Shown piece by piece: positions 1 to 55,066 of a DNA stretch of 55,066 bases. Each line of letters opens with the position of its first letter. The first letter of the stretch is position 1. The translations under genes were made by a program, and so were the position numbers. The DNA is from a virus: the IMG/VR virus record IMGVR_UViG_3300014790_000001. One strand, written 5' to 3'. The notes beneath the pieces were generated by a model. It had not been told where the DNA came from and did not search any database. It was given only the letters and a program-made list of their open reading frames with translations.

Positions 1-78
1 TAACAGGAGCGATACTTGTTCACTGTGGGAATGCCCGCAGTGCAAAAGAAGATTTACAACAACACATAAACCGGGAGT
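1..78. repeat. Terminal direct repeat, copy 1 (identical to 54989-55066); circular-assembly overlap or terminal redundancy
   Basis: Base-by-base comparison shows 1-78 equals 54989-55066, so the unique length is 54,988 bp. Confidence 0.95.
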
Positions 79-5708: not shown

Positions 5709-5746
5709 AGAATTGACCTTGATAGAATCTTGGTCAATTCTTTTTT
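5709..5746 (+). terminator. rho-independent terminator upstream of the integrase
   Basis: Perfect 10-bp stem AGAATTGACC/GGTCAATTCT followed by T5. Confidence 0.8.
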
Positions 5747-5765
5747 AATTGAAAGGAGAATTGAC

Positions 5766-7121
5766 ATGAAAAAATTAAATGTAGGTTATATGAGAGTGTC
5801 TACAGAAGCACAGACCGAAAAGTATGGTCTTGATGTCCAAGAAGACAAGATAAATGAACTTGCCAAGAAAAGGGGCGTGAAGATAGCCAGATGGTATGTG
5901 GACGGGGGATATTCCGGGAGCAATATCCAAAGGCCAAACATACAGAAACTTCTGGAAGATGCAGAAGCCGGAGAAATACAGGCAGTATACATCTATAAGC
6001 TTGACAGAATGAGCCGTGATGTTGTAGATACTCTTACGCTTGTGAGTAAACTTTTGCCAAAATACAATGTAGAGGTGGTATCAGCTACAGAGGATTTGCG
6101 GAATGAAACACCGATGGATCGTGTGATGTTGGGCGTTAATGCAGTCATGGGGCAGTATGAGCGTGAGGTTATCTATATGCGTACAAGAGCCGGGATGGTG
6201 GAGCGTGTAAAGCGTGGACTGTGGATGGGTGGTGGTACGATACCGTACGGATATAGGTACGACAGGAACGATGGGATATTACATATCATCCCGGAAGAAG
6301 CGGAAAAGGTAAAAGCTATCTTTCAGATGTTCCGGGACGGATATTCGTGTGATAGGATTCAAAAAATCCTCGGGATGCATTCAGAGAAGCTTGTATCGAA
6401 CATTATTAGACGAATAGCTTATGTAGGTAAAATACAATATAAAGGAAAAACATACCAAGGCTTGCATGAACCAATCATAGACGAAAAACTATTCTACGAA
6501 GTACAGGAAGAGATAAAAAAGAGATCCACAAATGCTTATGTAAGCAACAGGTATATGCTTACCGGGTTGTGCTATTGCGGAAAATGCGGTACTAAAATGC
6601 GTATGCAGAAGTGGGGAAAGTACACCAAGATAGTATGTTACTCACAGTACAAGGAAAAAGAGCATATATCTAAGACAGGGAACCCTTGCAAGAATAAAAA
6701 GGTGAGGGCAGATGTGGTAGAAAAAGAAGTAGAGGACTGTTTTAAACGATTTATCGTTAATGTCGAAGAAAAAGAGAATGAATCTGAAAGCACTAGGAAG
6801 ATGATAGAAAAAGAGATATCACTAAGCGAAGCAAAACTGAAACGCCTATACACATTGTATGCAAGCGGTAGTTCCGGTACAGATACGCTTTTGGATGTTA
6901 TCCAGGCAGAAGAAAAAACACTAAAAAACCTACGGGAAGAACTAAAGGCAGAAGACATCCGGGAGAAAGCTGGACGGGGAGAAAAAATAGAGAAAATAAA
7001 AGAGATGTCCAACGTGTGGGATACACTGACGGATTCCGAGAAAAACAAGGTGCTAAAAGAGTGTGTTGAAAAGGTAGTTATCACAGGCGATGACATAGAC
7101 ATACATTTTAGCATATATTAA
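5766..7121 (+). CDS. int: large serine recombinase (integrase)
   Basis: N-terminal resolvase motif GYMRVSTEAQ...YIYKLDRMSRD, a recombinase domain, a CYCGKCG zinc ribbon and a C-terminal coiled coil. GAAAGGAG before the ATG. Confidence 0.93.
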   Translation: MKKLNVGYMRVSTEAQTEKYGLDVQEDKINELAKKRGVKIARWYVDGGYSGSNIQRPNIQKLLEDAEAGEIQAVYIYKLDRMSRDVVDTLTLVSKLLPKYNVEVVSATEDLRNETPMDRVMLGVNAVMGQYEREVIYMRTRAGMVERVKRGLWMGGGTIPYGYRYDRNDGILHIIPEEAEKVKAIFQMFRDGYSCDRIQKILGMHSEKLVSNIIRRIAYVGKIQYKGKTYQGLHEPIIDEKLFYEVQEEIKKRSTNAYVSNRYMLTGLCYCGKCGTKMRMQKWGKYTKIVCYSQYKEKEHISKTGNPCKNKKVRADVVEKEVEDCFKRFIVNVEEKENESESTRKMIEKEISLSEAKLKRLYTLYASGSSGTDTLLDVIQAEEKTLKNLREELKAEDIREKAGRGEKIEKIKEMSNVWDTLTDSEKNKVLKECVEKVVITGDDIDIHFSIY

Positions 7122-9237: not shown

Positions 9238-9663
9238 ATGCCGAAAGGAAAAGAACTTACTCCGAAGCAGAAAGCGTTTGCCGATGAATATCTGACTGAT
9301 CTGAACGGGACAAGGGCGTATAAAGAAGTCTATAGAAATGTAAAAAATGATGCGACAGCAGCAGCAGCAGCTTCGAGATTGTTAAAAAACGTTAAAGTAA
9401 AAGCCTATATTGCTGAACGAATGAAAGAGATCCAGACCGAGAAGACAGCCGACCTTGAAGAAGTCATCCGATTCTTTTCATCTGTCATGCGTGGTGAAGT
9501 GAAAGACCAGTTTGATTTAGACGCTACTATCTCCGACCGCCTGTCTGCCGGACGTGAACTAATGCGTTGGTATGAGAAAGCCGATGGAGAAGAAAAAGAT
9601 ACTGGTGGAATCACAATCATAAATAACATTCCGAAACCGGAGGGCGCAGATGGGGGAGATTAA
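9238..9663 (+). CDS. terS: terminase small subunit
   Basis: LTPKQKAFADEYL...NGTRAYKEVY... matches the Terminase_2-type N-terminus. Lies immediately upstream of terL. Confidence 0.8.
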   Translation: MPKGKELTPKQKAFADEYLTDLNGTRAYKEVYRNVKNDATAAAAASRLLKNVKVKAYIAERMKEIQTEKTADLEEVIRFFSSVMRGEVKDQFDLDATISDRLSAGRELMRWYEKADGEEKDTGGITIINNIPKPEGADGGD

Positions 9664-10900
9664 GCTTACAGATGTGATAGCTCCGGCTTTTTACGGCGTA
9701 CATTGGGACATCATAGATGGAAAACATACGTATTATGATTTGTCCGGTGGCCGAGGTTCGACTAAATCTTCGTTTGTCGGTACAGAGATACCACTTGGAA
9801 TGATGCAAGACGCAGTAAATGGCATACATTCAAATGCGGTAGTGTTCCGAAAAGTCGGGAATACACTAAGAGAATCGGTATTTGAACAAATCGCATGGGG
9901 AATAGATGCACTTGGAGCATCGGACGAATGGACATCAAGCCTAAGTCCTATGCAATATGTGTATAAGCCGACAGGACAGAAGATAATCTTCCGTGGATTG
10001 GATAAGGCGAAAAAGACAAAATCAATAAAGATTAGCAAAGGATATTTTAAGTACCTATGGTTTGAGGAATTGGACGAATTTGCCGGAATGGAAGAGGTGC
10101 GAATGACACAACAGTCAGTTCTTCGTGGTGGCGAAAAATTCGTTGTTTTTAAATCGTTCAATCCACCGATCAGCAACAGCAACTGGGCGAATAAGTACGT
10201 ATCAGAGCCGAGAACAGACAGCTTAAGGCACAAAAGCGATTATAGATCTGTTCCGGTAGAATGGCTAGGGCAACAATTCATCGATGATGCTGAGTATCTG
10301 AAAGAAACAAACCCGAGAGCTTATGAGCACGAATATCTTGGAATTCCTGTAGGACTTGGAACAAATATTTTTGAACTCTTAGAGATCAGAGAAATCACTG
10401 ATGAAGAAATAAGTAGGATGCAATCTATCTACCAGGGCGAGGACTGGGGATGGTTCCCGGATCCGAAAGCGTTTTTACGTGTTGCTTATGTTCCGAACCA
10501 ACAGAAAGTATACGCACTGGATGAATTGGGTGGCTGCAAAATAAGGAACAGCGAGATGGCACGACAAATCAAAGAAAAGGGATATGATGATTGCGCTATC
10601 TACTGTGGAGTGGATGAAGAAGAGAGCATTGTTGACTTCCGTGATGCCGGACTTCCGGCACGTAAGGCAATCGTGACACCGGGTAGCCGGAAGTATACGT
10701 TTGAATGGTTGCAATGCCGTACATTGGTAATTGACCCAAGACGGACACCAAGACTGTACAAAGAGGTTATAGAGTATGAGCATGAGCGAGATGGCAATGG
10801 TGAAGTGATAGCAGATTATCCGGACGGGAATGACCACTGGATTGATGCATTGAGATATGCTACTAGTCCGATATCTATGAGACGTGGACAGAGTGCGTAG
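9650..10900 (+). CDS. terL: terminase large subunit (PBSX/Terminase_3-like)
   Basis: Walker A-like SGGRGSTKSS and Walker B-like LWFEELDEF. Size and position fit. Confidence 0.9.
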   Translation: MGEIKLTDVIAPAFYGVHWDIIDGKHTYYDLSGGRGSTKSSFVGTEIPLGMMQDAVNGIHSNAVVFRKVGNTLRESVFEQIAWGIDALGASDEWTSSLSPMQYVYKPTGQKIIFRGLDKAKKTKSIKISKGYFKYLWFEELDEFAGMEEVRMTQQSVLRGGEKFVVFKSFNPPISNSNWANKYVSEPRTDSLRHKSDYRSVPVEWLGQQFIDDAEYLKETNPRAYEHEYLGIPVGLGTNIFELLEIREITDEEISRMQSIYQGEDWGWFPDPKAFLRVAYVPNQQKVYALDELGGCKIRNSEMARQIKEKGYDDCAIYCGVDEEESIVDFRDAGLPARKAIVTPGSRKYTFEWLQCRTLVIDPRRTPRLYKEVIEYEHERDGNGEVIADYPDGNDHWIDALRYATSPISMRRGQSA

Positions 10901-15653: not shown

Positions 15654-15737
15654 ATGGCAACAAGTACGATTAATATTATTGTGATTTGTGTGTTTTTCTT
15701 AATTCTTCTTGCATGGCCAGATGGAAAGGGTAAGTAA
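15654..15737 (+). CDS. hydrophobic mini-peptide (27 aa)
   Basis: Hand-translated MATSTINIIVICVFFLILLAWPDGKGK. Its stop overlaps the MuF ATG. Confidence 0.35.
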   Translation: MATSTINIIVICVFFLILLAWPDGKGK

Positions 15738-16969
15738 TGCTTACGCCGGAATATCTCTTTCATGTGACCGAGGGAGCCGAAAAGATAACGTCAGACATGC
15801 ATAAGAACATTATGGACATGATCGTTGAGCGTATAATGGTACGCATAGGTCGTGGAGAAGACTATATGCTTACAGCTACGGACAGGTGGCAGATACAGGT
15901 GTTACAGGAATCCGGCTACTTATTGGAAGACATACAAAAAGAGATTGCTGACAAAACGAAGAAGCAAGAGAACGAGCTGAAAAGCGCATTTGAAGAAGCC
16001 GGAATAAAAGCTATCGAGAGAGACGATGCGATATATAGGGCGGTAGGACTATCACCTACGCCCTTATTGCAATCTCCGGCATTGCTCAGAATACTGGAAA
16101 GAGATTATAACGCTACGTGTGGAGAATGGAGAAACCTTACACGAACAACGGCAGATGAAGCACAGAAGTTGTTTTTGAAAGAGGTCGACACAGCTTACCG
16201 CATGACATCAAGCGGTGCCGTATCATACACACAAGCTGTCAGGAATGCTGTTGACAAGATGATAAAGCAAGGTGTTAAAGTATCCTATCCGTCCGGTAGA
16301 GAAATGAGCATTGAATCAGCCACAATGATGACTGTCCGCACAGGGATAAGCCAGTGCGCCGGAGCAATCGCATTAAAACGAATGGAAGAATTGGAATGGG
16401 ATACTATCTTAGTATCTGCACATGTGGGCGCACGAATTGGTGATGGCGGTAACAATCCAACGAACCACTTTTGGTGGCAAGGAAAATTCTATTCCCGGAC
16501 AGGCAAAGACAAGAGGTTCCCGGACTTCCGAACATCAACAGGCTACGGAACGGTGACAGGGTTGTGTGGCGTGAACTGCCGACACTCTTTCGGGTCCGGT
16601 GACGGTGAAAACAATCCGTATGCAGATATCAATCTGTCAAGCGAAGACAATATCAAAGCGGAAGAACGTGCGAAAAAACAACGTCTTATGGAAAGGCATA
16701 TTCGCAACAGCAAGAGAGAGATTCAGAATTTGCAGACTGCTATAGATGCAAGCGGAGATGATAAGCTTAAATTCGAATTGCAACAGATGTATGACCGCAA
16801 ATCAGCGGTACTCAGACGGCAGAATAAGCAATACCGTGAGTTCTGCAAAGATAATGGTCTTAAAGAATATTCGGAACGTCTACGGGTAGCACAGTGGGAT
16901 AGGTCGCAGGCTGTGAAATCTGCAAAAGCAGCACAAAGATATCTTAATACGAAAGGTGATGTAAAATGA
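15737..16969 (+). CDS. head morphogenesis protein (SPP1 gp7 / Mu F family)
   Basis: Contains the ...GLCGVNCRHSF... motif characteristic of the Phage_Mu_F domain. 410 aa. Confidence 0.8.
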   Translation: MLTPEYLFHVTEGAEKITSDMHKNIMDMIVERIMVRIGRGEDYMLTATDRWQIQVLQESGYLLEDIQKEIADKTKKQENELKSAFEEAGIKAIERDDAIYRAVGLSPTPLLQSPALLRILERDYNATCGEWRNLTRTTADEAQKLFLKEVDTAYRMTSSGAVSYTQAVRNAVDKMIKQGVKVSYPSGREMSIESATMMTVRTGISQCAGAIALKRMEELEWDTILVSAHVGARIGDGGNNPTNHFWWQGKFYSRTGKDKRFPDFRTSTGYGTVTGLCGVNCRHSFGSGDGENNPYADINLSSEDNIKAEERAKKQRLMERHIRNSKREIQNLQTAIDASGDDKLKFELQQMYDRKSAVLRRQNKQYREFCKDNGLKEYSERLRVAQWDRSQAVKSAKAAQRYLNTKGDVK

Positions 16970-17800: not shown

Positions 17801-18427
17801 ATGAACTTCGGAGAAGCCATAAAATGCATGAAAAAGGGAAAGAAAGTTACACGCAATGTATGGAAAGAAAGCTTTTTCAATGGGAGAAAACAGTTTATTT
17901 TTATTGGGAAAAACAAAGGTTTAACAACGAATACGTTTCTTGCAATTCTACCAGAAGAAGAATGCTTTTCGGACTGCATTATGGGGTATACGCGAAAAGG
18001 AATCTTTCAGCCAAACTGGACACCAACACAAGAAGATATGCTTGCGGAAGATTGGGAAATGTATCCGGCAGAGGAAACGGTAGTCGATGAAACGCCGAAC
18101 ATTACGGCAGATGAAATGATTGATCTCAAAAACCGTATCGGGTGGAACATTAAATTTTATTCTACCGGGGAAACAATTATTTCTGAGCACATGGACTATC
18201 AAAAACTCTTAACCGGGGCAGAAAATACATATACGCTGTCGTTTGCTATCCCTAAAAAAAGTCTTGATGGTTTGTCAATGACAAATAAATGCCAAAACGT
18301 TATTGTTTCTGGACTTTTATTCAAAGTATATGCTTCTAGGAATATTGCTGACGATAGCCTTTGGCTCGTGACGGAAAGTGCCTTATCTGAAAAAGAATTT
18401 CACACAATTATAAGATTGGAGAGGTGA
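17801..18427 (+). CDS. DUF2829 (Tad2-like) N-terminal domain protein with an unknown C-terminal extension
   Basis: MNFGEAIKCMKKGKKVTR..W...WTPTQEDMLAEDWEMY matches the DUF2829 hallmark. About 120 extra residues follow. Confidence 0.6.
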   Translation: MNFGEAIKCMKKGKKVTRNVWKESFFNGRKQFIFIGKNKGLTTNTFLAILPEEECFSDCIMGYTRKGIFQPNWTPTQEDMLAEDWEMYPAEETVVDETPNITADEMIDLKNRIGWNIKFYSTGETIISEHMDYQKLLTGAENTYTLSFAIPKKSLDGLSMTNKCQNVIVSGLLFKVYASRNIADDSLWLVTESALSEKEFHTIIRLER

Positions 18428-24263: not shown

Positions 24264-24350
24264 CGGGATATAGTTCAATGGTAGAACAAAAGTCACAATC
24301 ATCTCTTTAAAAAAAGACTTATGTCCACGGTTCGATTCCGTGTATCCCGA
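24264..24350 (+). tRNA. tRNA-like element with an aberrant anticodon arm (anticodon not assignable)
   Basis: Perfect 7-bp acceptor stem CGGGATA/TATCCCG, then U8 A9. D arm GTTC-AATGGTA-GAAC and T arm CACGG-TTCGATT-CCGTG. The AAGTC/GACTT stem closes a 21-nt loop instead of a 7-nt one. Confidence 0.5.
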
Positions 24351-24431
24351 TTACCCCGACAGAGGTTCATCTGTCTGAATCCCTACCGCAGACGAAGCGG
24401 TTAATAAGAGACGTTGAGGAGGATATGCAAC

Positions 24432-25040: not shown

Positions 25041-25108
25041 AACCATACTGTTATCCGGCTATTGATAGAGGATAGTCGTTGACCTTAAAGAATTAAAGGA
25101 GAACAAAA

Positions 25109-25960
25109 ATGGCAGAAACAACAAGAATTACATCATTAAACATGTTACTTGACCCAACCGGAAAAATGCTTCTTGCAGAAGAGTACGGAAAGGTCATTGA
25201 AAACGTCCAGAAGAACACTATTTCTGGGAAAATGAAGAATACCGAACTTTCCGGTGATCCGTCAGCTGGAACCGTAGAAGCAAAAAGATTTGCAAATGCG
25301 ACATCTAAGAATTACGGAACTGCCAGAGGTGCAGCTAAAGGTGACGGAGTAAAAGGAAAGCCGGTTACGATTCCGATTAATGTAGATAAGGAAATTGTAG
25401 AAGAGGTTGAACAGAAAGATGTATCTCTTCTCGGAGTAGAGGGACTTATCGCAAAAAGAACAGCAAATCATGCACTTAGAATGATCGCAGAACTCGACAC
25501 TGAGTTCTTCAAAGTTGCCGGAACAGATGCGACTGAAGTTGATCTGACAGGTATTACAGCTATTGAGGAACAGGCTGAAACAATGATTCAGCAGTGCGAA
25601 ACTACCAAGAATGAATATGTGGACGGAGTACCACGTTCTATGATGAACATGATCTGTACACCGAAATTCTACGGAAAAATCCGCACATATCTGGACAAAG
25701 TTACAGTGCCGGGCGTTGGCGTGGCTGACGAAGAGTTCTACGCTTATCATGGCGTAAAAACATTCTCATGCGTGCACATGCCGACAGACGTTGATGTGAT
25801 CGTGATGGTGGATGGATCCATCGCACAGCCTGTTAAATCCACACCATACAGTGCTGAGAAGATTCCTCTTTCAGAAGCGTACGGTATCGAACTCTTCTAC
25901 CATTACGGAACAAAATCTGTAATGCCAGACCTTATCTTCAAAAACAAGAAAGGTGAGTAA
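25109..25960 (+). CDS. major capsid protein
   Basis: 283 aa, follows the scaffold gene, AAAGGAG before the ATG. Call rests on position and composition. Confidence 0.7.
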   Translation: MAETTRITSLNMLLDPTGKMLLAEEYGKVIENVQKNTISGKMKNTELSGDPSAGTVEAKRFANATSKNYGTARGAAKGDGVKGKPVTIPINVDKEIVEEVEQKDVSLLGVEGLIAKRTANHALRMIAELDTEFFKVAGTDATEVDLTGITAIEEQAETMIQQCETTKNEYVDGVPRSMMNMICTPKFYGKIRTYLDKVTVPGVGVADEEFYAYHGVKTFSCVHMPTDVDVIVMVDGSIAQPVKSTPYSAEKIPLSEAYGIELFYHYGTKSVMPDLIFKNKKGE

Positions 25961-27664: not shown

Positions 27665-28166
27665 TAAAAAAATAGTGAAATACGATGTTGACGGATACGA
27701 CATTGTAACAAATGCACTTAAAGATTTGCTGAATCAGTATCCGGGATTGGAAACCGGAGAAGTGTTTAAATTCTCCACACTCAAAGAAGATGACGGAATG
27801 GCATTCTATCCGGTATCAGGTGCGGTGATTGCACAGGAGAAAAAATCGGTAACAGGTAAGGTGAATCAGCTTTGTAACTACCCATTTTATATCGTGTACA
27901 GGACATCCCGTGATTCTCCGAATATGAAAGCGGATATCAAGGAATTTCTTGATAGTGTAGGTAAATGGCTGGAACGACAAACAGTCGTGATTGATGGCGA
28001 AAAGCATAGGCTTACATCTTACCCAACACTTACAGAAGAACGAAAAATAGAAGAGATTACAAGAATCACACCATCATACCTTGACAAAACTTACGAAAAC
28101 AATGTGCAAGACTGGGTGATTAGTATGTCTCTTAAATACAGAAATGTATTCATAAGAACTAATTAA
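27648..28166 (+). CDS. tail terminator / neck protein (by position)
   Basis: 172-codon ORF with a GTG start, immediately upstream of the major tail gene. Confidence 0.5.
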   Translation: MQAVDSKKIVKYDVDGYDIVTNALKDLLNQYPGLETGEVFKFSTLKEDDGMAFYPVSGAVIAQEKKSVTGKVNQLCNYPFYIVYRTSRDSPNMKADIKEFLDSVGKWLERQTVVIDGEKHRLTSYPTLTEERKIEEITRITPSYLDKTYENNVQDWVISMSLKYRNVFIRTN

Positions 28167-28230
28167 CCGGACATCAATTGGAGATGTTCGCTGACCGTAA
28201 AAAGTTAACGGTAGAAAGGACTATAATATG
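28161..28230 (+). repeat. intergenic two-hairpin RNA motif, copy A (upstream of the major tail gene)
   Basis: About 82 percent identical to 29817-29885. Every stem difference is compensatory or G-U to G-C. Confidence 0.8.
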
Positions 28231-28764
28231 GGAAATCTTAGTAGAGAAGCACTCGCGCATTACCTGGACTATAGTTTCAAACAGACAGAAGCAAGTGCTA
28301 CGTGGGAAATCCTTGGTGATGACATTGACGATATGTCGGTTGATCTGAACCCGGATACAGAGACAAAGAAGAACATTCTTGGTCAGACAAAAACAACAGA
28401 TAATGGATATGAACCGTCTATGGATGCAGATACATACTATGCAAACCCGGACAAAAAGCTGTATCCGAAGATTAGGGATATTGCAATGAAACGATTGAAA
28501 GGAGCAGACTGCAAAACACTTATGTTGGAAGTCCTTGTGGAAGATACAAGCGCAGAAAACCACCTTGCGTATGTCGAAGAGGTTATGGTAAAGCCTCAGT
28601 CTTATGGTGGAGATACATCTGGCGTAAACATTCCGTTCAAGGTGTCTTCCGATGGAAAGAGGACAGAGGGATATGTAAGTGCCACTTCGCTCGCTTCTGG
28701 AAACCCAGAATTTACAGCCGGAACAATCCCACATAGTCTTTCTACAGGAAAAGAAGTACTGTAA
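28228..28764 (+). CDS. major tail protein
   Basis: 178 aa, sits upstream of the chaperone pair and tape measure. Sequence type resembles siphovirus major tail proteins. Confidence 0.65.
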   Translation: MGNLSREALAHYLDYSFKQTEASATWEILGDDIDDMSVDLNPDTETKKNILGQTKTTDNGYEPSMDADTYYANPDKKLYPKIRDIAMKRLKGADCKTLMLEVLVEDTSAENHLAYVEEVMVKPQSYGGDTSGVNIPFKVSSDGKRTEGYVSATSLASGNPEFTAGTIPHSLSTGKEVL

Positions 28765-28788
28765 CGCTTTATTAACAGGAGGAATAAT

Positions 28789-29232
28789 ATGAGCAACAAG
28801 TTACCAAAAAAAAGAAATGATAGCGAACTGGTTATTAAGATAAATGATGGCCGAGTCAAAATTCCGATCAAAAACCAGTTTGGTGAAACTCTTGGAAGTA
28901 TAGTGTTCGCACCGACTGACACTAACATTGTTGACAGATACGAAGAAGTCGTTCGATTTTGGAAAAATTACAAGATGCCGGAAGATGACAGCATTGAAGC
29001 TGCCAGAAAAGCAGAAAAAGAAATTTCAGAGAAAATGTCTTATCTGATTAATGGAGATGCAGAAAAAGCATTTTTCCAGGTTCTCGGACCGTTTTCGCCA
29101 ATGGATGATGGAAGAATTTTCCTCGAAATTGTAATTGACAGTGTTGCAAAAGTCATTGAAACAAAACTGAACACAAACGTAACAAAGGTACAGCGCCGTG
29201 TAAATAAGTACGTGGCCAAGTACCATAACTAA
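28789..29232 (+). CDS. tail assembly chaperone (first of pair)
   Basis: Position between the major tail and tape-measure genes. Confidence 0.55.
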   Translation: MSNKLPKKRNDSELVIKINDGRVKIPIKNQFGETLGSIVFAPTDTNIVDRYEEVVRFWKNYKMPEDDSIEAARKAEKEISEKMSYLINGDAEKAFFQVLGPFSPMDDGRIFLEIVIDSVAKVIETKLNTNVTKVQRRVNKYVAKYHN

Positions 29233-29822
29233 TGGATGTCTGGAAACTTCCGAAATCCGTTAACGTAAACGGCAAAGAATATCGAATACGCTCAGATTAC
29301 AGAGCCGTGTTAGATATTCTTTGTGCTATTAATGATCCCGATATAGTAGCCGGAATGTCCGAAGAAGAAAAAAACTTGGAGATATACACAACGATTCTGG
29401 CTATATTCTACGAAGACTTTGATAATCTTCCAACGGAAGACTGGGAAGAAGCTTTAAAGACAGCGAAAGAGTTTATTGACTGCGGATTTAAGGAAGATAA
29501 GAAAAAACCGCAACTTATGGATTGGAAAAAAGATGCAAAGATTCTAATTCCGGCCATTAATAAAGTGGCACATGAGGATATTCGTGATAAAGAGTACTTA
29601 CATTGGTGGACGTTCATGGGACTTTTTATGGAGATTGGAGAATCTCTGTTCAGCACAATAACTAACATTCGTGAAAAAGTCTCAAAAGGGAAGAAATTGG
29701 ATAGTTGGGAAAAAGAATTCTATTCTAGCAACAAAGAACTTGTTGACCTTAAAGCGACACCAGAGCGAAGCGAAGAAGAAAAAAAAGAATTAAGAAGAGT
29801 ATTCGGACTCTTAAATAATTAA
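29232..29822 (+). CDS. Gp15-family tail assembly protein
   Basis: ...LPKSVNVNGKEYRIRSDYRAVLDIL... fits the Phage_Gp15 N-terminus. Has its own ATG overlapping the upstream TAA. Confidence 0.6.
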   Translation: MDVWKLPKSVNVNGKEYRIRSDYRAVLDILCAINDPDIVAGMSEEEKNLEIYTTILAIFYEDFDNLPTEDWEEALKTAKEFIDCGFKEDKKKPQLMDWKKDAKILIPAINKVAHEDIRDKEYLHWWTFMGLFMEIGESLFSTITNIREKVSKGKKLDSWEKEFYSSNKELVDLKATPERSEEEKKELRRVFGLLNN

Positions 29823-29885
29823 CCGGGTATCATGTGGAGATACCCGCTGACCGCAAATATTTAGCGGTAGAAAGGACAATACATG
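29817..29885 (+). repeat. intergenic two-hairpin RNA motif, copy B (upstream of the tape-measure gene)
   Basis: See copy A. Same AATTAACCGG start and the same GGTAGAAAGGAC SD context. Confidence 0.8.
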
Positions 29886-32639
29886 ACAGAAGATGGAAGT
29901 ATTGTTATTAACACAAAAATCAGAACTGATGGTATAAAGGCGGGTTCACAAGAAATTGAAGCCGGATTGCGAAGAGCAGCAGACAGGGTGGATAATTTGG
30001 GAACGTCTGCAAAAAACGCCATCAACAAGCAAATAGATGCTTTTGCAAAACTGAATAACGAATACAGCGCACAAGAACAAAAGGTAGAATCGTTACGGCA
30101 AAAGGTAGCATCCTATGCAAATCAGCGCATCCCAACCACGGAATACAAGGAAATATCCGACCAAATTTCAAAAGCAGAAGCAAAACTCAATCAGCTTATG
30201 TCATCACAGGAACGTTTTGTAGCAAACGGAGGGAAAAAGAACACTTCGACTTATAAAAAAATGCAGTATGACATAGATGAACTTGCAAACACTATTAAAT
30301 ACGCAAGGTCGGAGCTTATTGATCTGGAAGTTTCTGGAAAAGCCTTTTCGACTGGTGTGAACACCAAAGAAGCACAGGCAGACATGGAAAGACTTGCGAC
30401 CGCAGAAAGAAAACTTGCTGATATGCAGAACCGATTAAACACATCGTATTCTGGCATTAAAAGCAAACTTGCAAGTTACGGTACTGGTTTGGTCTCTTTG
30501 AAGGAGAAACTTTTTGGTGTAAACAGTGCGAATAACAAAACAGCGAATTCAAATTCAAAATTAAGCAAATCCTTTAAAGATACAAGTAAATCAGCCGGAT
30601 CAGCAAGAATGAGTATCGGAAGAATGCTTACGATGTCTGTGTTGTTTAGCAGTGTTTTTCGAATTCTTAGTGCTCTTACACAAGGAATAATAGGTGGATT
30701 CAATAATCTCGCTCAATATTCCAAAACCACAAACGCAAATATATCTACTTTGTGGGGGAGCCTTATCAGATTGCAAAATGCATTTGCTACAGCTTTCAGT
30801 CCGATTCTGGAAGTTGTGACACCGATACTGTCACGATTCATTGACCTTATCAGTACAGCCATAACCTATGTAGGAATGTTTTTCGGGTATCTTGCCGGGA
30901 ATAAAACATACACAAAGGCACTGGCAGTACAAAAAAATTATGCTGCCAGTCTGGACAAGACCGCCAAGTCTACGAAGAAAGCCACAAAAGCAGCGAAAGA
31001 CTACCTGTCACCGCTCGATGAAATTAATCGGTACACAACAAATAAGGATACCGACACAACACCGTCTGGATCCGATGTAAACGGAACACCGATCAGCAAA
31101 ATGTTTGAAGAAGTTCCAATAGATGCACCGCCGATTTTCGAAAAAATCAAGGATGTACTGGGGCAGATATTCCAACCGTTCAAAGAAGCGTGGGAGCGTG
31201 AGGGAAAGAACACAATTGATGCTGCTAAGTATGCATTATCGGAGCTTGGAGCACTTGCAAAGAGTGTCGGCAGTAGTATGTTGGAAGTCTGGACGAATGG
31301 TACAGGCACACAGATACTGTCTACCATGTTACAGATCGCACAGGGACTGCTTACAACGGTCGGGAATATCGCAAGGCAATTAGATATAGCTTGGAATAAA
31401 AATGCCGTAGGAACGGCCATTATACAGGCTATAGCAGATGCTTTCCAAAAGGTACTTGATATCATCAATCGTCTTGTGTGGGATACGGCTCAGTGGGCGG
31501 GATCGTTGAACTTTTACCCGTTACTTAATTCGATTAAGAATCTGTTTGAATCTATGTCACCGCTGATAGAAGCTATTGGAAGTTTCTTAGAAAGATTGTA
31601 TACGAACATTATATTGCCGATGCTTACATGGCTGATAGAGAGCGGCCTTCCGGCACTTATTAATGTACTTGCTGGCTTGTTTAATTTCCTCGGTGAACAT
31701 CAGTGGATTGTTGATGCCATTGGGACAGCATTAGTTACAGCGTTTGCTACATCAAAGATAGTTCCTTTAATTGCAACTATATCAAGCGCAGTTCTTGGAT
31801 TTGCTGGACACATAGGAACATTAATTGACATTCTAAAAGGCGGTGGTGGATTAATTGGCGTTATCGGTCAAGTAGTTTCTACGTTTGGCATTGTTCCTAT
31901 TGCAATAGCAACAGCAATAGCAGCAATCATATTAATAGCTACTCACTGGAATCAACTTAAAGCTGTAATGCTGAAGCTTATGGACTGGATAAAAGGAGTA
32001 TTTGCCACTGACTGGCACGCTCAATTCGGAGTATTTGGAGATGTAGTAGAAGTTTTTCTTAACAGCTTTAAAGGGATTTTTAACAGCATTAAACAGATCT
32101 GCTCTGGGTTTGTCACATTTTTAAAAGGAGTATTTACAGGGAATGTAAATATGGCGCTAAAAGGAATACTAAACATACTCCGTGGAGCTGCTAACTTAAT
32201 CTACTCAATTTTTAAAGCACCTGTAAATATGGTTATCGCTTTATTTAATGGATTGAATCAAGCAATCATTAATGCCATTAATGGATTAGTGGACGGACTG
32301 AATCACATTAAAGTACCGGATTGGGTTCCAGGTATCGGCGGTAAAGGAATTAATCTTTCCCATGCAAATTACACCAGAATTCCATATCTTGCACAAGGGG
32401 CAGTTATTCCGGCCGGAAATCCGTTCTTGGCGGTTCTTGGTGACCAGACAAAGGGAAACAACTTGGAGATGCCGGAAAATCTGTTAAGAAAAATCGTAAG
32501 TGAAGAAAGTGGCAAAGGTACAGGAATGATAAAACTTGTGGTAAATCTGGACAGCAGAACGGTACTTGAACAGCTTATTAATACAGCAAAAGAAATGCAG
32601 ATGTCCAACGGACAGAATGTATTCGAACTTGGGAGGTAG
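29883..32639 (+). CDS. tape measure protein
   Basis: 918 aa with a coiled-coil N-terminus and a long hydrophobic/Gly-rich centre. Canonical position. Confidence 0.88.
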   Translation: MTEDGSIVINTKIRTDGIKAGSQEIEAGLRRAADRVDNLGTSAKNAINKQIDAFAKLNNEYSAQEQKVESLRQKVASYANQRIPTTEYKEISDQISKAEAKLNQLMSSQERFVANGGKKNTSTYKKMQYDIDELANTIKYARSELIDLEVSGKAFSTGVNTKEAQADMERLATAERKLADMQNRLNTSYSGIKSKLASYGTGLVSLKEKLFGVNSANNKTANSNSKLSKSFKDTSKSAGSARMSIGRMLTMSVLFSSVFRILSALTQGIIGGFNNLAQYSKTTNANISTLWGSLIRLQNAFATAFSPILEVVTPILSRFIDLISTAITYVGMFFGYLAGNKTYTKALAVQKNYAASLDKTAKSTKKATKAAKDYLSPLDEINRYTTNKDTDTTPSGSDVNGTPISKMFEEVPIDAPPIFEKIKDVLGQIFQPFKEAWEREGKNTIDAAKYALSELGALAKSVGSSMLEVWTNGTGTQILSTMLQIAQGLLTTVGNIARQLDIAWNKNAVGTAIIQAIADAFQKVLDIINRLVWDTAQWAGSLNFYPLLNSIKNLFESMSPLIEAIGSFLERLYTNIILPMLTWLIESGLPALINVLAGLFNFLGEHQWIVDAIGTALVTAFATSKIVPLIATISSAVLGFAGHIGTLIDILKGGGGLIGVIGQVVSTFGIVPIAIATAIAAIILIATHWNQLKAVMLKLMDWIKGVFATDWHAQFGVFGDVVEVFLNSFKGIFNSIKQICSGFVTFLKGVFTGNVNMALKGILNILRGAANLIYSIFKAPVNMVIALFNGLNQAIINAINGLVDGLNHIKVPDWVPGIGGKGINLSHANYTRIPYLAQGAVIPAGNPFLAVLGDQTKGNNLEMPENLLRKIVSEESGKGTGMIKLVVNLDSRTVLEQLINTAKEMQMSNGQNVFELGR

Positions 32640-39914: not shown

Positions 39915-40649
39915 CTATCTTCTTAATACCGCAATCACAACTCCAAACCTTACCCATTGTTCCATGTCTTCAAAACTATTCGGATCAACTTCTATGACAT
40001 CACCGAAGCCGTTGATCGGGACTAACTTTATCTTACCTCTCTGTACATACCGCCTTATATACGCACGTCCTGTTTCTTTGTGTATAATAATCACGGTATC
40101 ACCGTTTCTTGGTACTCTTTTGGATATGCAAATGATATCACCCTTTACATATACAGGAAGCAAGTTGTTGCTCGTTATCCTTATACCACAATGTAACGTC
40201 TCACCGTACTTTTTTATGTATTCCGGACAGTATATCCGCTCTTCGTGTGAGGAATCCAATATCATACCGTCAGCCATCTCACCAGTGAGGAATAGAACAT
40301 CCAACATGTTTTCGGGATCCGTTTCCAACACTTTCATAGAGATTTCATAATCCATCTTACCAAGAATATACGCACGTTGCCTGTCAGTCAATTGCCTGTA
40401 CTTTCCCAATACCTCGTATTCCTTAGAAGAATACCCTAAGAGATCAGGGATAGATTTATGAGTTAGTTCCGACAACCTTAGTGCTAAGAAAACGTCAAGA
40501 TTATTAGTCTTTCGTGAAACGATGTTTTTGTATGTGGACACAGACACACCAAGCATCTTAGAAAAGAGAACTTGCGTAAAATCAAGGCTTTTCCGCTCTT
40601 CTTCGATGTTATGTGCGAAGTTATCCAACATTTCATTTTTCGTCAACAT
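39915..40649 (-). CDS. CI-type repressor: XRE HTH plus an S24/LexA-like C-terminal domain
   Basis: N-terminal FTQVLFSKMLGVSVSTYKNIVS (HTH). C-terminal ...VKGDIICISKRVPRNGDTVIIIH...IRRY...LVPIN. The canonical Ser/Lys dyad is not evident. Confidence 0.75.
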   Translation of the reverse strand: MLTKNEMLDNFAHNIEEERKSLDFTQVLFSKMLGVSVSTYKNIVSRKTNNLDVFLALRLSELTHKSIPDLLGYSSKEYEVLGKYRQLTDRQRAYILGKMDYEISMKVLETDPENMLDVLFLTGEMADGMILDSSHEERIYCPEYIKKYGETLHCGIRITSNNLLPVYVKGDIICISKRVPRNGDTVIIIHKETGRAYIRRYVQRGKIKLVPINGFGDVIEVDPNSFEDMEQWVRFGVVIAVLRR

Positions 40650-44395: not shown

Positions 44396-44650
44396 GCAAG
44401 CCACTTAGCAAGCCACAACCCTTGAAAAATAAGGGCAAAACGGTAACTGGTCGCAAGCCAAACGTTACTCAGATAACAATCAATTGACAAGCCAAAATTA
44501 AAGAAATTTTCAAAAAATCTAAAATTTCGACAAGCCACTTGACAAGCAAATGACAAGCTAAAACCCTTGAAAAATAAGGCAAAACCGCTTGTCAAGTGAA
44601 AACGGTTAGCAAGCCACATAACAATCCATTAACAATCAATTCGCAAGCCA
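44396..44650. repeat. iteron array (putative origin of replication)
   Basis: 9 direct copies of RCAAGCYA (44396, 44408, 44453, 44487, 44530, 44542, 44553, 44609, 44643) and 1 inverted copy (about 44588). Two copies each of AACCCTTGAAAAATAAGG(G)CAAAAC and AACAATCAATTSRCAAGCCA. AT-rich tract at 44651-44706. Confidence 0.7.
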
Positions 44651-45687: not shown

Positions 45688-46605
45688 ATGCAAAAATTGG
45701 AATTGACCATAAATCAGACGATGGGGGTTATCACCGGAAACTTTGAGGACATTAAGAAATCTCTTGAAACAGAGATGGCAGTGTATGAGACAAAGCAGTT
45801 TGCAGAAGAGGATAAGCAGAAAGCCAAAGGTGATTTGGCAGACCTCAGAAAGCTGAGAAAGGCAGTGAACGACCGCAAGGTTGAAGTGAAGAAAGAGTAC
45901 ATGAAGCCTTATGAAGTGTTTGAGGGCAAGGTGAAAGAGCTGATCGGAGTGATTGATAAACCTATCGCACTGATTGACGGACAGGTGAAAGAGTTTGAAG
46001 CAAAACGTGTAGAAGAGAAAAAAGCAGAAATCCAGAACCTGTACAACGAATTTGTGGAAGAAGAACTGCATGATTACATCCCACTGGAAAAAATCTACGG
46101 TGAGAAGTGGACAAATGCATCCACCACGATGAAATCTATCCGGGAAGAGATAAACTCAAAGGTTATGCAGACCAGACAGGATATTGCAACCATTAAGGCT
46201 ATGAAGTCTGAAAAAGAGGAACAGGCGTTGAACCTGTACATGGAGAACAACAACCTTGCTCTTGCTATCCAGATTATTAACCGCTACGAACAGGAAAAAG
46301 CGGAAATCTTACGGAGAAAAGAGAAAGAGGAACAGGAAAGACGTGATCGTGAACTCGAAAGAGAACGCGAGAGGGTAAGAGAAGAAGAACGTGCCAGAAT
46401 CCGTGAAGAGGAAAGACTTAAGACAGAAGCAGAACAGAAAGTCATCGACCAGATCAAGACGGTGGACGAAGTGAAAGCAGCGGAATTCACCACGGAAGAT
46501 TCGAAGACGGTAGTATTTACGGTTAAGGCTACGGATGCAGAACTGGAAGAGATTGAAATGGCATTAACTTCTCTAGGCGTTTACTTTGAAAGGAAAGATG
46601 TGTAA
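45688..46605 (+). CDS. DUF1351-like coiled-coil protein (recombination-module partner)
   Basis: TAGGAGGT before the ATG. Long E/K/R coiled coil. Sits directly upstream of the ERF gene, as in many Gram-positive phages. Confidence 0.55.
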   Translation: MQKLELTINQTMGVITGNFEDIKKSLETEMAVYETKQFAEEDKQKAKGDLADLRKLRKAVNDRKVEVKKEYMKPYEVFEGKVKELIGVIDKPIALIDGQVKEFEAKRVEEKKAEIQNLYNEFVEEELHDYIPLEKIYGEKWTNASTTMKSIREEINSKVMQTRQDIATIKAMKSEKEEQALNLYMENNNLALAIQIINRYEQEKAEILRRKEKEEQERRDRELERERERVREEERARIREEERLKTEAEQKVIDQIKTVDEVKAAEFTTEDSKTVVFTVKATDAELEEIEMALTSLGVYFERKDV

Positions 46606-47258
46606 TGGCAGAAGAAAAGAGCAAACGTGAACTTGATATCACAGAGAAGCTTTCCGAGATCCAGACAAGAATGGATGTACCGAAAGACAAGCATAACGAT
46701 TTTGGTGGATACGATTACAGAAGCGCAGAGAGTATCTTGAATGAGTTCAAGAAATATTCAAGGGAATACAATGTATCTCTTACGCTGAAAGATGAAATCG
46801 TGGAGATAGCCGGAAGAGTATACGTGAAATCGACAGCAACATTTATCGACTGCGAAAATGGTGGAGAAATATCTGTTCCGGCGTATGCACGGGAGCCGGA
46901 GACGAAACCGAAGATGGACGAATCACAGGTTACGGGATCCGCATCAAGCTACGCCAGAAAGTACGCCATGAACGCATTATTTCTTCTGGATGATGTAAAG
47001 GATCCTGAAACGAACGAATACGCGCAGCAGACGGGAGCCGATAAAAAGAGCGGTGGAAAGAAAGAACAGAAAGCCAATGACGGAAAGATTACACAAGGGC
47101 AGATAAAAGAACTTCGGAAGATATTTGAAAAAAACAAAATTGATGAAGTAAAGGCTATAGCCGGATACAGTGCACAGAAGATTGAAGATCTGACGCAACA
47201 GCAGTACGGGTGGTTCCGTGATAATCAGGAAGAAGCCAGAAAGATGTTTGGTGTGTAA
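46605..47258 (+). CDS. erf: ERF-family single-strand annealing protein
   Basis: ...FGGYDYRSAESILNEFK... and ...TGSASSYARKYAMNALFLLDD fit the ERF core. Confidence 0.7.
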   Translation: MAEEKSKRELDITEKLSEIQTRMDVPKDKHNDFGGYDYRSAESILNEFKKYSREYNVSLTLKDEIVEIAGRVYVKSTATFIDCENGGEISVPAYAREPETKPKMDESQVTGSASSYARKYAMNALFLLDDVKDPETNEYAQQTGADKKSGGKKEQKANDGKITQGQIKELRKIFEKNKIDEVKAIAGYSAQKIEDLTQQQYGWFRDNQEEARKMFGV

Positions 47259-53492: not shown

Positions 53493-53762
53493 ATGAAAAA
53501 AGAAGAATTCATAAAACTTGCACCGAAATGCGGATATGGCAGTGAAGACCGGGCAAGAGATTATACAGAGCGAAATCCTAAAATGCATTATAGCGTGGAT
53601 GATTTTATAAAACTCTACCATGAACCAATAGATTCTATGCACTGGAACGGCATACGTGCTACGAAAGGATTGTATGAAATGTACGGGATTAACGGAAGAA
53701 CTACGGCTAAGAGGAATGGAGTAGCTGGAAATGACAGTACGAGACAGGATTGGGGGATGTGA
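53493..53762 (+). CDS. hypothetical protein
   Basis: 89-codon ORF. Confidence 0.6.
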   Translation: MKKEEFIKLAPKCGYGSEDRARDYTERNPKMHYSVDDFIKLYHEPIDSMHWNGIRATKGLYEMYGINGRTTAKRNGVAGNDSTRQDWGM

Positions 53763-53764
53763 GA

Positions 53765-54884: not shown

Positions 54885-55066
54885 ATGGCTAAAAGACCAG
54901 ATGTAGCAGTGAATAAAATTGAATTCGATTCAAGCGAGGTAGATATGGCACTTAGAAAACAAATTCCAGAAAAACCGATATTTCTACATAACAGGAGCGA
55001 TACTTGTTCACTGTGGGAATGCCCGCAGTGCAAAAGAAGATTTACAACAACACATAAACCGGGAGT
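54885..55066 (+). CDS. 5' part of the junction-spanning zinc-ribbon mini-protein (continues at 79-157 of the circle)
   Basis: GAAAGG before the ATG. The ORF runs off the window end inside the terminal repeat. Confidence 0.6.
   Translation, partial: MAKRPDVAVNKIEFDSSEVDMALRKQIPEKPIFLHNRSDTCSLWECPQCKRRFTTTHKPG
54989..55066. repeat. Terminal direct repeat, copy 2
   Basis: Identical to 1-78. Confidence 0.95.

What the first reader, a model, noticed from the sequence alone, without database searches (positions are those of the whole stretch)
28161..29885. Duplicated about 70-nt two-hairpin intergenic RNA motif with compensatory base changes, upstream of the major tail and tape-measure genes
The gaps before the major tail gene (28161-28230) and the tape-measure gene (29817-29885) are homologous from the last sense codon and stop codon of the upstream genes (AAT TAA) to the SD (GGTAGAAAGGAC) and ATG.

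I count 11 differences in the first 60 aligned positions:
- Four fall in hairpin loops.
- Seven fall in stems and all preserve pairing.

In hairpin 1, CGGACATC/GATGTTCG becomes CGGGTATC/GATACCCG, which is two double compensatory changes plus one G-U to G-C change. In hairpin 2, CCGT...ACGG becomes CCGC...GCGG, keeping the same internal A.A mismatch and the AA/TT pairs. This covariation argues for selection on RNA (or ssDNA) structure rather than on sequence.

Looser versions of the same layout (hairpin, CTGA/CGTTGACC linker, CCGC...GCGG or TTAA...TTAA hairpin, SD) precede the scaffold gene (24351-24431) and the capsid gene (25041-25108). There is no T-run, so these are not terminators. Candidate roles are translational operator or enhancer, an RNase processing site that sets differential stability, or a protein-binding site coordinating stoichiometry of abundant structural proteins. 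I do not recognise it as a named RNA family.
Basis: seen in the sequence. Interest (0 to 1): 0.7.

Follow-up and report, generated by a model that had tools for sequence, protein, structure and literature searches.

The report
Two-hairpin leader RNA of phage late genes
The duplicated intergenic element is real: it belongs to a widespread, unnamed two-hairpin RNA leader placed just before the ribosome-binding site of capsid, tail-tube and tape-measure genes in phages of gut Clostridia, and what it does is still unknown.

Summary
Copies at 28164-28220 and 29820-29876 differ at 11 of 60 positions: 4 in loops and 7 in stems, and every pair is kept.

A covariance model finds a third, diverged copy before the capsid-position gene (25052-25112). 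The scaffold-gene leader is not a member.

The element is not a local duplication. An exact core pattern hits at least 118 viral contig stretches, and full-scoring copies lie in prophages of Lachnospiraceae and related Clostridia. It sits 6-9 nt before the start codon of non-homologous major head, major tail, tape-measure and occasional lysis genes, often 2-4 copies per contig.

Hairpin 1 covaries strongly (98-99% of cells paired, up to 5 pair types per position). A conserved G.U pair places the structure in sense-strand RNA. The linker CGCUGA, the hairpin-2 loop (AAAAGUUA-like) and UAGAAAGGA are near-invariant.

There is no Rfam match, pseudoknot, loop-loop contact or SD sequestration. Close relatives lack exactly the 48-nt hairpin core. 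In other phages a terminator-like hairpin directly precedes it.

Best guess (about 0.4): a portable leader that marks processed, 5'-protected, independently translated segments of late mRNA. A protein operator is the main rival.

The parts
28164..28220 (+). Copy 1 of the leader motif, running from the TAA stop of the upstream gene to the end of the SD
   Evidence: Covariance model R1: 78.4 bits, E 6.8e-21, full-length match. Sequence.
28168..28190 (+). Copy 1 hairpin 1: CGGACATC / loop AATTGGA / GATGTTCG (8 bp, with G.U at the third pair)
   Evidence: MFE fold. Pair counts across the family: 98.6-99.6% of cells paired, and 6-7 of 8 pairs show double changes.
28191..28214 (+). Copy 1 second hairpin: CUG, bulged A, CCGU / loop AAAAAGUUA / ACGG, UAG
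   Evidence: MFE fold. The inner pairs of hairpin 2 covary (CG/UA/AU/UG/GC), and the G.U pair of the extension is replaced by A-U in 6 distinct sequences.
28212..28220 (+). UAGAAAGGA, an extended Shine-Dalgarno sequence, 7 nt before ATG 28228
   Evidence: AGAAAGGA is the longest class of match to the complement of the 16S 3' end among SDs in this genome. It is invariant in canonical family members.
28228..28764 (+). Downstream gene 1: 178-aa protein at the major tail (tube) protein position
   Evidence: phrog_3099, E 4.7e-43, function unnamed. It lies between a tail-completion gene (phrog_3266) and Gp15-like/TMP genes.
29820..29876 (+). Copy 2 of the leader motif, running from the TAA stop of the Gp15-like gene to the end of the SD
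   Evidence: R1: 74.2 bits, E 1.1e-19. Sequence.
29824..29846 (+). Copy 2 hairpin 1: CGGGTATC / loop ATGTGGA / GATACCCG
   Evidence: Fold. Near-identical relatives show the path U-A, then U.G, then C-G at one pair.
29847..29870 (+). Copy 2 second hairpin: CUG, bulged A, CCGC / loop AAAUAUUUA / GCGG, UAG
   Evidence: Fold. Family pair counts.
29883..32639 (+). Downstream gene 2: tape-measure protein (918 aa)
   Evidence: phrog_1535, E 9e-108.
25052..25112 (+). Copy 3, diverged, as matched by R1. Hairpin 1 is CGGCTAT/ATAGTCG (25056-25078), the linker is TTGA, and hairpin 2 is CCTT/AAGG (25083-25099). The 3' strand of hairpin 2 overlaps the SD AAAGGAGA. The match runs 4 nt into the downstream gene (ATG 25109).
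   Evidence: R1: 28.6 bits, E 3.1e-6 with filters off. Homologous copies score 25-31 bits in relatives.
25109..25960 (+). Downstream gene 3: 283-aa protein in the major-capsid position, directly after the scaffold gene
   Evidence: Assigned by position only. There is no PHROG, Pfam or PDB sequence match. The scaffold gene is PF06810.

Best explanation
**What it is.** A cis-acting structured leader in the sense-strand late mRNA. It is a portable module of about 57 nt:
- an AU-rich lead-in and the conserved dinucleotide AC;
- an 8-bp hairpin with variable sequence but a conserved base (CGG...UCG, with a G.U pair);
- directly abutting it, a second hairpin (CUG, bulged A, CCGC, A-rich 9-nt loop, GCGG, UAG);
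- its 3' flank is the extended SD UAGAAAGGA, 6-9 nt before the start codon.

**Proposed mechanism (inferred, not shown).**
1. The module marks the 5' boundary of an independently expressed segment of the long late transcript.
2. Endonucleolytic cleavage, or decay arriving from upstream, stops in or at the AU-rich stretch just 5' of hairpin 1.
3. Hairpin 1 then sits at or near the new 5' end and blocks 5'-to-3' decay (RNase J type).
4. The strong SD next to hairpin 2 recruits 30S subunits de novo, so translation of the capsid, tail-tube and tape-measure cistrons no longer depends on upstream ribosomes.
5. The near-invariant junction (UCG-CUGA-CCGC) and hairpin-2 loop probably form the docking surface for one conserved host factor, either a ribonuclease or the 30S platform. 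Which one is unknown.
For: **Shown.**
- Both helices are real RNA helices. In a MAFFT alignment of 30 diverse copies, 99.1% of cells are paired, the covariation score is 0.451 against 0.155 in shuffles (0 of 500 reach it), and slid registers give at most 58% paired. The result is the same on 74 distinct sequences.
- G.U occupies the third pair of hairpin 1 in 22 of 30 and 46 of 72 sequences, and the extension pair in 61 of 70. These would be C.A mismatches on the other strand.
- The motif is always on the coding strand, 6-9 nt from an ATG.
- The downstream genes are non-homologous late genes: two tape-measure protein (TMP) families, several major tail families, at least three major head families and an endolysin.
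- Contigs often carry 2-4 copies at the same three junctions.
- UAGAAAGGA matches the complement of the 16S 3' tail that other genes of this phage also use as SD.

**Consistent with segment boundaries.**
- In at least 5 unrelated phage groups (20 of 103 distinct contexts), a terminator-like hairpin plus U-run ends 8-21 nt before hairpin 1.
- The 12 nt before hairpin 1 are 72-82% A+T, against 58% overall.
- In this phage the fourth gap of the structural module holds a tRNA-like element, which is a natural RNase P/Z substrate, directly before another two-hairpin leader.
- The stop codon sits 1 nt before hairpin 1 and 61 nt before the next ATG. In a motif-less relative the stop lies inside the SD, 14 nt from the ATG. 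This is the change expected from a decoupling module.

**From established knowledge.** 5'-proximal hairpins and strong SD-like sequences stabilise Firmicute mRNAs. Examples are the aprE leader, cryIIIA STAB-SD and the SP82 polypurine stabiliser.
Against: - There are no RNA-end data, so cleavage and protection are entirely inferred.
- A generic protective hairpin needs no conserved sequence. Yet the linker, the base of hairpin 1 and the loop of hairpin 2 are near-invariant across unrelated phages. That points to a specific partner which this model does not name.
- In silico the module does not make the SD more accessible. Unpaired probability is 0.65 native, 0.64 with the body shuffled and 0.67 with the body deleted (n=64, not significant).
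- The targets include low-copy proteins (TMP, endolysin), so 'high expression' is not the common denominator.
- The hairpin core is absent from close relatives with the same genes, so it is not essential.
- A terminator directly upstream fits a boundary, but it would equally fit a new transcription start that I could not detect.
Confidence: 0.4

Rival explanations
1. Operator for a trans-acting RNA-binding protein, either phage- or host-encoded. The protein binds the conserved junction, bulged A and A-rich loop next to the SD. It represses or activates translation of several late cistrons together, setting their timing or stoichiometry.
For: - Sequence conservation is concentrated in the base of hairpin 1, the linker CGCUGA, the bulged A and the hairpin-2 loop, while the top of hairpin 1 varies freely.
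- The architecture is simple, with no pseudoknot, which is typical of protein sites.
- The site abuts or overlaps the SD. In capsid-type copies the 3' strand of hairpin 2 is part of the SD.
- Several copies per genome sit before different genes, like a regulon.
Against: - No RNA-binding protein was recognised among about 60 window proteins scanned, though many have no family.
- The downstream gene products are non-homologous, so autoregulation by the product is excluded.
- Relatives do without the site.
Confidence: 0.25
2. Processive antitermination or anti-pausing RNA, working like HK022 put. The nascent two-hairpin RNA modifies RNA polymerase so that it reads through the next internal terminators of the late operon. 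Each copy re-arms the polymerase.
For: - It has two directly adjacent hairpins with conserved lower stems, as in put.
- Terminator-like hairpins occur inside these late operons, including one before the next motif copy.
- Several copies are spaced along the operon.
Against: - No copy lies at the start of the late operon, upstream of terS at 9238.
- The terminators lie immediately upstream of the motif, not downstream of it.
- The fixed juxtaposition with the SD and start codon (6-9 nt) has no role in this model.
- The motif is dispensable in relatives.
Confidence: 0.08
3. Passenger or recombination linker. A short conserved cassette spreads between mosaic phages by homologous recombination at gene boundaries. 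It is tolerated because it carries a stop codon and an SD, and it has no regulatory role of its own.
For: - There is a clean 48-nt presence/absence difference between collinear relatives.
- The same hairpin-1 variant (GGCTATC/GATAGTC) occurs before unrelated genes in unrelated contigs.
- Copies within one genome resemble each other.
Against: - Purifying selection on pairing is strong, with up to 5 pair types per position.
- Among near-identical genomes, variation falls mainly in loops or keeps pairing, with only isolated stem-breaking singletons, and a U-A, U.G, C-G path is visible.
- There are no terminal inverted repeats, and only 3 copies per genome.
Confidence: 0.07
4. A new small self-cleaving ribozyme that cuts the late transcript at the module.
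For: - It is about 57 nt, with variable stems around highly conserved junction nucleotides.
- It is phage-borne and sits directly upstream of an SD.
- Such placement would give a 5'-OH end that resists decay.
Against: - No match to any Rfam ribozyme model, even at E up to 10.
- No tertiary covariation or pseudoknot in a mutual-information scan that included the flanks.
- No loop-loop complementarity beyond chance.
- Two plain hairpins make a poor catalytic scaffold.
Confidence: 0.05
5. Ligand- or temperature-responsive switch that controls access to the SD.
For: - It lies in a 5' leader next to the SD.
- The 3-bp extension pairs with the first three SD nucleotides, and in capsid-type copies hairpin 2 overlaps the SD.
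Against: - The SD is mostly unpaired in the default ensemble (0.65-0.72), and no alternative anti-SD partner exists.
- The loop of hairpin 1 is not conserved.
- There is no complex junction.
Confidence: 0.03

Closest known systems
GP20-a / GP20-b RNA motifs (Rfam RF02991, RF03003): orphan cis-regulatory candidates upstream of phage scaffold (GP20) genes
   Same: - They are conserved structured leaders directly upstream of a late structural gene in phages and prophages, with unknown function.
- GP20-b actually occurs in a relative of this phage, before the scaffold gene and after a tRNA (L056, 41.6 bits).
   Different: - The sequence and structure are different, and neither model matches the motif regions.
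- GP20 motifs are tied to one gene family. This motif precedes many non-homologous genes and occurs 2-4 times per genome.
Firmicute 5' mRNA stabilisers: aprE leader hairpin, cryIIIA STAB-SD, phage SP82 polypurine stabiliser (own knowledge)
   Same: - A hairpin and/or strong SD-like sequence near the 5' end of a processed mRNA.
- A Gram-positive host with RNase J and RNase Y.
- A phage example exists (SP82).
   Different: - Those elements are single-locus and not conserved in sequence across genomes.
- Here the junction and loop sequences are conserved, and the 5' end has not been mapped.
T7 late-gene leaders and RNase III sites
   Same: - Repeated, related intergenic structures punctuate a polycistronic phage transcript.
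- They sit upstream of strong SDs of structural genes.
   Different: - T7 sites are single irregular hairpins of about 20 bp or more, cut by RNase III.
- Here the hairpins are 8 bp and 4-7 bp, too short for a classical RNase III substrate.
HK022 put RNA
   Same: - Two directly adjacent hairpins of about 60-70 nt in total.
- More than one copy per genome.
- Lower stems are conserved.
   Different: - put lies just downstream of early promoters and upstream of terminators, and has no link to an SD.
- This motif lies inside the late operon, right after stop codons or terminators and fused to an SD.
Candidate structured RNAs of the IMG/VR catalogue (Fremin et al. 2023, PMC10690425), e.g. DNAVirus_6425
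   Same: The paper reports a 64-nt candidate in Caudovirales of Blautia and Ruminococcus that is highly abundant in gut small-RNA-seq. Size, host group and habitat fit this motif.
   Different: Identity could not be checked, because the sequences and supplements are not held. The catalogue assigns no function.
Small intergenic repeat elements transcribed into hairpins (Neisseria Correia elements, pneumococcal BOX/RUP, ERIC; own knowledge)
   Same: - Short, multi-copy intergenic cassettes.
- Present or absent between close relatives.
- They can alter mRNA processing and stability.
   Different: - There are no terminal inverted repeats or target duplications, and the copy number is low.
- The motif is strictly oriented and fused to an SD.
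- Compensatory evolution is strong.

Membership tests
Any Rfam 15 family (including GP20-a/b, gut-2 and the known ribozyme and riboswitch classes) | Covariance-model score at or above the family's gathering threshold | tested here: not met
   - Whole window at gathering thresholds: only a tRNA hit at 24264-24350.
- Both copies at E up to 10: the best overlapping hit is gut-2 at 11.9 bits against a threshold of 39.8.
Intrinsic (Rho-independent) terminator | GC-rich hairpin followed directly by a U-run | tested here: not met
   - Hairpin 1 is followed by CUGACCG, and hairpin 2 by UAGAAAGGA.
- The terminator scan lists no + strand site at either copy.
RNase III processing site (T7 or SP82 type) | Long (about 20 bp), often irregular duplex | tested here: not met
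   The helices are 8 bp and 3+4 bp. Cleavage itself cannot be tested here.
HK022 put-type antiterminator RNA | Two adjacent hairpins located just downstream of a promoter and upstream of the terminators they suppress | tested here: inconclusive
   - The two-hairpin layout is met.
- The location is not: there is no copy at the operon start, and terminators lie directly upstream.
- Activity cannot be tested.
Lambda-type nut site | boxA (CGCUCUUUA-like) followed by a boxB hairpin with a GNRA-like pentaloop | tested here: not met
   The linker is CGCUGACC, and the hairpin-2 loop is 8-10 nt, AAAAAGUUA-like.
SD-sequestering riboswitch or RNA thermometer | The SD is base-paired in the default fold, with an alternative conformer | tested here: not met
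   - The mean unpaired probability of AGAAAGGA is 0.65 (median 0.72).
- The MFE structure leaves AAAGGA free.
5' mRNA stabiliser (aprE / STAB-SD type) | Strong SD-like sequence and/or a hairpin within a few nt of the mature 5' end | not testable with these tools
   A strong SD and a hairpin are present. The position of the mature 5' end is unknown.
MITE- or REP-like repeat element | Terminal inverted repeats, target-site duplication, many copies | tested here: not met
   - 3 copies in 55 kb.
- The ends TAACCGG and TAACGG are not inverted repeats.
- An indel polymorphism does exist.
DNA palindrome / protein operator on dsDNA | Symmetric half-sites with strict Watson-Crick symmetry on both strands | tested here: not met
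   G.U is the commonest state at two pairs and occurs at others. The opposite strand would carry C.A there.

The most novel reading that the evidence does not exclude
The module is an RNA 'punctuation mark' for late polycistronic mRNA in phages of gut Clostridia. It would be a portable cassette that directs site-specific cutting, either by a new small self-cleaving fold or by recruiting one dedicated nuclease. It would work alongside the tRNA-like element and the GP20-type leader at the scaffold gene, so that each major structural cistron becomes its own 5'-protected message.
Probability: 0.08. Interest if true: 0.85.

Novelty: new variant of a known kind. Interest (0 to 1): 0.55.

Why it matters
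**Biology.** Lachnospiraceae are dominant human gut bacteria, and almost nothing is known about how their phages express genes. One conserved RNA module sits before the capsid, tail-tube and tape-measure genes of many unrelated phages and prophages. This points to a shared post-transcriptional control step that could be studied once and applied widely. It also fills an Rfam gap.

**Practical uses.**
- The covariance model marks late structural genes in unannotated gut viromes. Several of the downstream proteins have no family hits.
- The module offers a compact, natural expression cassette for engineering Clostridia.

**Experimental access.** Cultured strains carry the motif in prophages, so the question is directly testable.

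Tried and rejected
1. **Recent local duplication.** Rejected. The motif occurs, with new compensatory changes, in distant relatives and in unrelated phages.
2. **Terminator.** No U-run follows either hairpin.
3. **Known RNA family.** None matched. Full-text searches for the sequence and for related descriptions found no named motif.
4. **Loop-loop kissing between the two hairpins.** True pairs are no better than permuted pairs: 3.07 against 3.02 nt, p = 0.23, and the duplex energies are positive.
5. **Pseudoknot or flank pairing.** A mutual-information scan with average-product correction, covering 20 nt upstream and 25 nt downstream, recovers only the two helices.
6. **SD insulation.** Predicted accessibility does not change when the body is shuffled or deleted.
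7. **SD-like loop in hairpin 1 as a universal standby or CsrA-type site.** An SD-like 4-mer occurs in 32 of 86 loops against 20.8 +/- 3.6 expected, and GGA is not enriched (27 against 25.6). The signal is enriched but far from universal.
8. **Antisense partner in the genome.** No extra complementary site appears beyond chance.
9. **Sigma-70-type promoter inside the motif.** The spacing does not fit, and the scan shows no enrichment.
10. **K-turn at CUGA/UAGA.** The bulge would be 2 nt rather than 3. The G-to-A variants keep Watson-Crick pairing, which favours a plain 3-bp helix.
11. **Shared phage-encoded regulator.** Pfam scans of about 60 window proteins found no RNA-binding domain. The fetched loci cover only structural modules, so co-occurrence could not be tested.
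12. **Cultured-phage homologue.** INPHARED gave only 4 partial hits, all in uncultured faecal phages.
Full report
**Observation**

The repeat finder groups them as one family, 81% identical over 69 nt. Counting position by position gives 11 differences in the first 60 positions. Four lie in the two loops and seven lie in stems, and all twelve pairs stay intact in both copies. In a million simulations of 11 random substitutions, the joint frequency of at least seven stem hits with no broken pair was 2.9e-5. Both copies fold into the two hairpins, at -14.3 and -19.5 kcal/mol with z-scores of -2.2 and -3.3. The second hairpin gains a 3-bp extension (CUG/UAG) with a bulged A, and it starts directly after the first hairpin. 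The window itself is a complete genome of about 55 kb with 78-nt identical ends. It has no close relative among deposited phages.

**It is a family, not a duplication**

A search with the 178-aa tail protein returned 61 IMG/VR loci.
- Near-identical phages carry both copies. Their variation falls mainly in loops or preserves pairing, apart from a few singleton variants with a stem mismatch. One pair shows the path U-A, U.G, C-G.
- Relatives at 68-74% protein identity (L056, L058) keep the element at both junctions, with new compensatory changes.
Most of these are unrelated to the window, and hairpin 1 has a different sequence in almost every lineage.
- The same pattern hit 38 stretches in bacterial genomes. 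Only those from Lachnospiraceae and related Clostridia score as full motifs (46-77 bits). They include Lachnotalea glycerini, Blautia, Butyrivibrio, Roseburia, Faecalicatena contorta and Lachnoclostridium. The rest are half-matches at 20-30 bits.
- Nearly all the full-scoring bacterial copies lie before recognisable prophage structural genes. The exception precedes a 70-aa membrane protein.

**Structure**

I aligned 30 diverse copies with MAFFT, without fitting them to any structure.
- 99.1% of cells form a pair, and six of the eight hairpin-1 pairs show changes on both sides.
- The covariation score is 0.451 against 0.155 in shuffles (0 of 500 reach it).
- Sliding the partner by 1-3 columns drops pairing to 24-58%.

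On 74 distinct sequences aligned to the model, the picture holds. The two inner pairs of hairpin 2 also covary (CG, UA, AU, UG, GC). The G.U pair of the extension is replaced by A-U in six sequences. G.U is the commonest state at the third pair of hairpin 1 and at the extension pair. The opposite strand would have C.A there, so the structure belongs to the sense RNA. It is neither a DNA palindrome nor an antisense transcript. A mutual-information scan that included both flanks recovers only these helices. Loop-loop complementarity is at chance level. The following parts are near-invariant in sequence:
- AC before hairpin 1;
- the base of hairpin 1;
- the linker CGCUGA;
- the hairpin-2 stem;
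- the A-rich loop ending in (A/G)(U/A)UA;
- UAGAAAGGA.

**Copies in the window**

Model R1, run with filters off, gives three hits and nothing else above 13 bits:
- 78.4 bits at 28164-28220;
- 74.2 bits at 29820-29876;
- 28.6 bits (E 3e-6) at 25052-25112, before the gene that follows the scaffold gene.

In the third copy the 3' strand of hairpin 2 (AAGG) is part of the SD. The scaffold leader (24351-24431) scores 3.6 bits. It is a separate conserved two-hairpin element with its own compensatory changes in L058. In L056 the same slot holds a tRNA followed by the Rfam motif GP20-b.

**Context**

The motif is always on the coding strand, with the start codon 6-9 nt after AAAGGA. Downstream proteins fall into unrelated clusters:
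- two tape-measure families;
- at least three major-tail groups (phrog_3099, phrog_158 and others);
- major head proteins (phrog_247, phrog_422 and the window type);
- a Gly/Cys-rich protein of unknown role (phrog_16490);
- one endolysin;
- one 70-aa membrane protein.

Many contigs carry 2-4 copies, typically at the head, tail-tube and tape-measure junctions.

Upstream there are two arrangements. In window-type phages the stop codon TAA is part of the 5' flank, 1 nt before hairpin 1. In at least five unrelated groups, a terminator-like hairpin with a U-run ends 8-21 nt before hairpin 1 (20 of 103 distinct contexts under strict criteria). The 12 nt before hairpin 1 are 72-82% A+T, against 58% overall. 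AGAAAGGA is one of the longest matches to the complement of the 16S 3' tail among SDs in this genome, and it is also used by other genes.

**A removable module**

Relatives L053-L055 have homologous flanking genes but lack exactly the 48 nt from TAA to the end of hairpin 2. In them the upstream gene stops at the TAG inside TAGAAAGGA, 14 nt before the ATG. The hairpin core is therefore a discrete, dispensable insertion or deletion, placed between a stop codon and a pre-existing SD.

**Mechanism**

The following are shown: a conserved sense-strand RNA structure, fused to an SD, before many unrelated late genes. Everything about its action is inferred.

I favour, at about 0.4, a boundary module for the late transcript. 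An AU-rich cleavage or decay-arrest zone is followed by a 5'-proximal protective hairpin and a strong, uncoupled ribosome-binding site. The supports are:
- the upstream terminator-like hairpins;
- the AU-rich lead-in;
- the tRNA-like element in the remaining gap of the structural module;
- the contrast with the coupled arrangement in L053;
- the known behaviour of 5' hairpins and SD-like stabilisers in Firmicutes (own knowledge).

The weaknesses are:
- the absence of any end-mapping data;
- the unexplained sequence conservation of the junction and loop;
- the lack of any predicted gain in SD accessibility (0.65 native, 0.64 shuffled, 0.67 deleted).

The sequence conservation is what keeps a trans-acting protein operator at about 0.25. 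The remaining readings are weaker:
- Put-like antitermination (0.08) fits the two-hairpin shape but not the placement.
- A neutral recombination cassette (0.07) fits the indel but not the strength of compensatory selection.
- A ribozyme (0.05) and a switch (0.03) lack any tertiary signal or sequestration.

**Known or new**

No Rfam 15 family matches, and no paper in the held library names the motif or contains its core sequence. The IMG/VR catalogue of Fremin et al. 2023 lists a 64-nt, highly expressed candidate in Blautia and Ruminococcus phages that may be the same element. The nearest named relatives in kind are the orphan GP20-a/b leaders. This motif differs from them in being independent of gene family, multi-copy and cassette-like. 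I therefore rate it a new variant of a known kind, with moderate interest.

Noticed in passing
window 24264-24350 (+): A tRNA-like element scores 53.2 bits against Rfam tRNA, but ARAGORN does not call it. Its anticodon arm carries a 22-nt loop (ACAATCATCTCTTTAAAAAAAG) in place of the usual 7 nt. The odd loop is kept, with length variation, in more than 60 related contigs. Relatives L056 and L058 have ordinary tRNAs in the same slot. It may act as a processing signal or a decoy rather than a decoding tRNA.
   Followed up: partly
window 24351-24431 (+); L058 1806-1890; L056 1873-1935: The leader of the scaffold gene (PF06810, formerly GP20) is a separate conserved two-hairpin element: GACAGA/TCTGTC and CCGC/GCGG. 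L058 has compensatory variants, GGCAGA/TCTGCC and CCGT/ACGG. In L056 the same position holds Rfam GP20-b (41.6 bits). The window version matches no Rfam model.
   Followed up: partly
L053 5980-6003 and 7554-8021: Relatives L053-L055 lack the motif at both junctions. At the tail-tube junction the stop codon TAG lies inside the SD. The 468-nt gap before their tape-measure gene instead holds a small hydrophobic ORF (MDNNKNHFDFKDLMAFGMFILALLTFVFTFIR), several hairpins and a terminator-like site.
   Followed up: no
window 1-78 and 54989-55066: The two ends are identical 78-nt sequences. The window is therefore a complete, circularly permuted or terminally redundant genome of 54,988 bp.
   Followed up: no
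window 17801-18427 (+): This protein has a Tad2-like (Thoeris anti-defence 2) domain, E 3.6e-17. It lies in a block of about 9 kb of accessory genes (about 13.7-22.4 kb), downstream of the terminase genes (9238-10900) and upstream of the scaffold/head genes. That block also contains a minor capsid protein 2 gene (15737-16969).
   Followed up: no
window 44409-44650: Two pairs of direct repeats lie about 150 nt apart (CAAGCCACAACCCTTGAAAAATAAGG..., 72-85% identical). The region lies between the lysogeny-control and replication/recombination genes, so these could be iterons or an origin.
   Followed up: no
window 5730-7121, 39915-40649 (-), 46605-47258, 53750-54871: The gene content indicates a temperate lifestyle: a large serine recombinase, a CI-like repressor (HTH plus S24 peptidase domains), an ERF recombinase and a C5 cytosine methylase.
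   Followed up: no
L134, L110, L149, L189, L207 and others (downstream of the motif): A recurrent target of the motif is a 244-329-aa protein of unknown function (phrog_16490). It is Gly-rich, has a Cys-rich C-terminus and starts MALTDD or MGLTDD. It appears in many Clostridia prophages.
   Followed up: no
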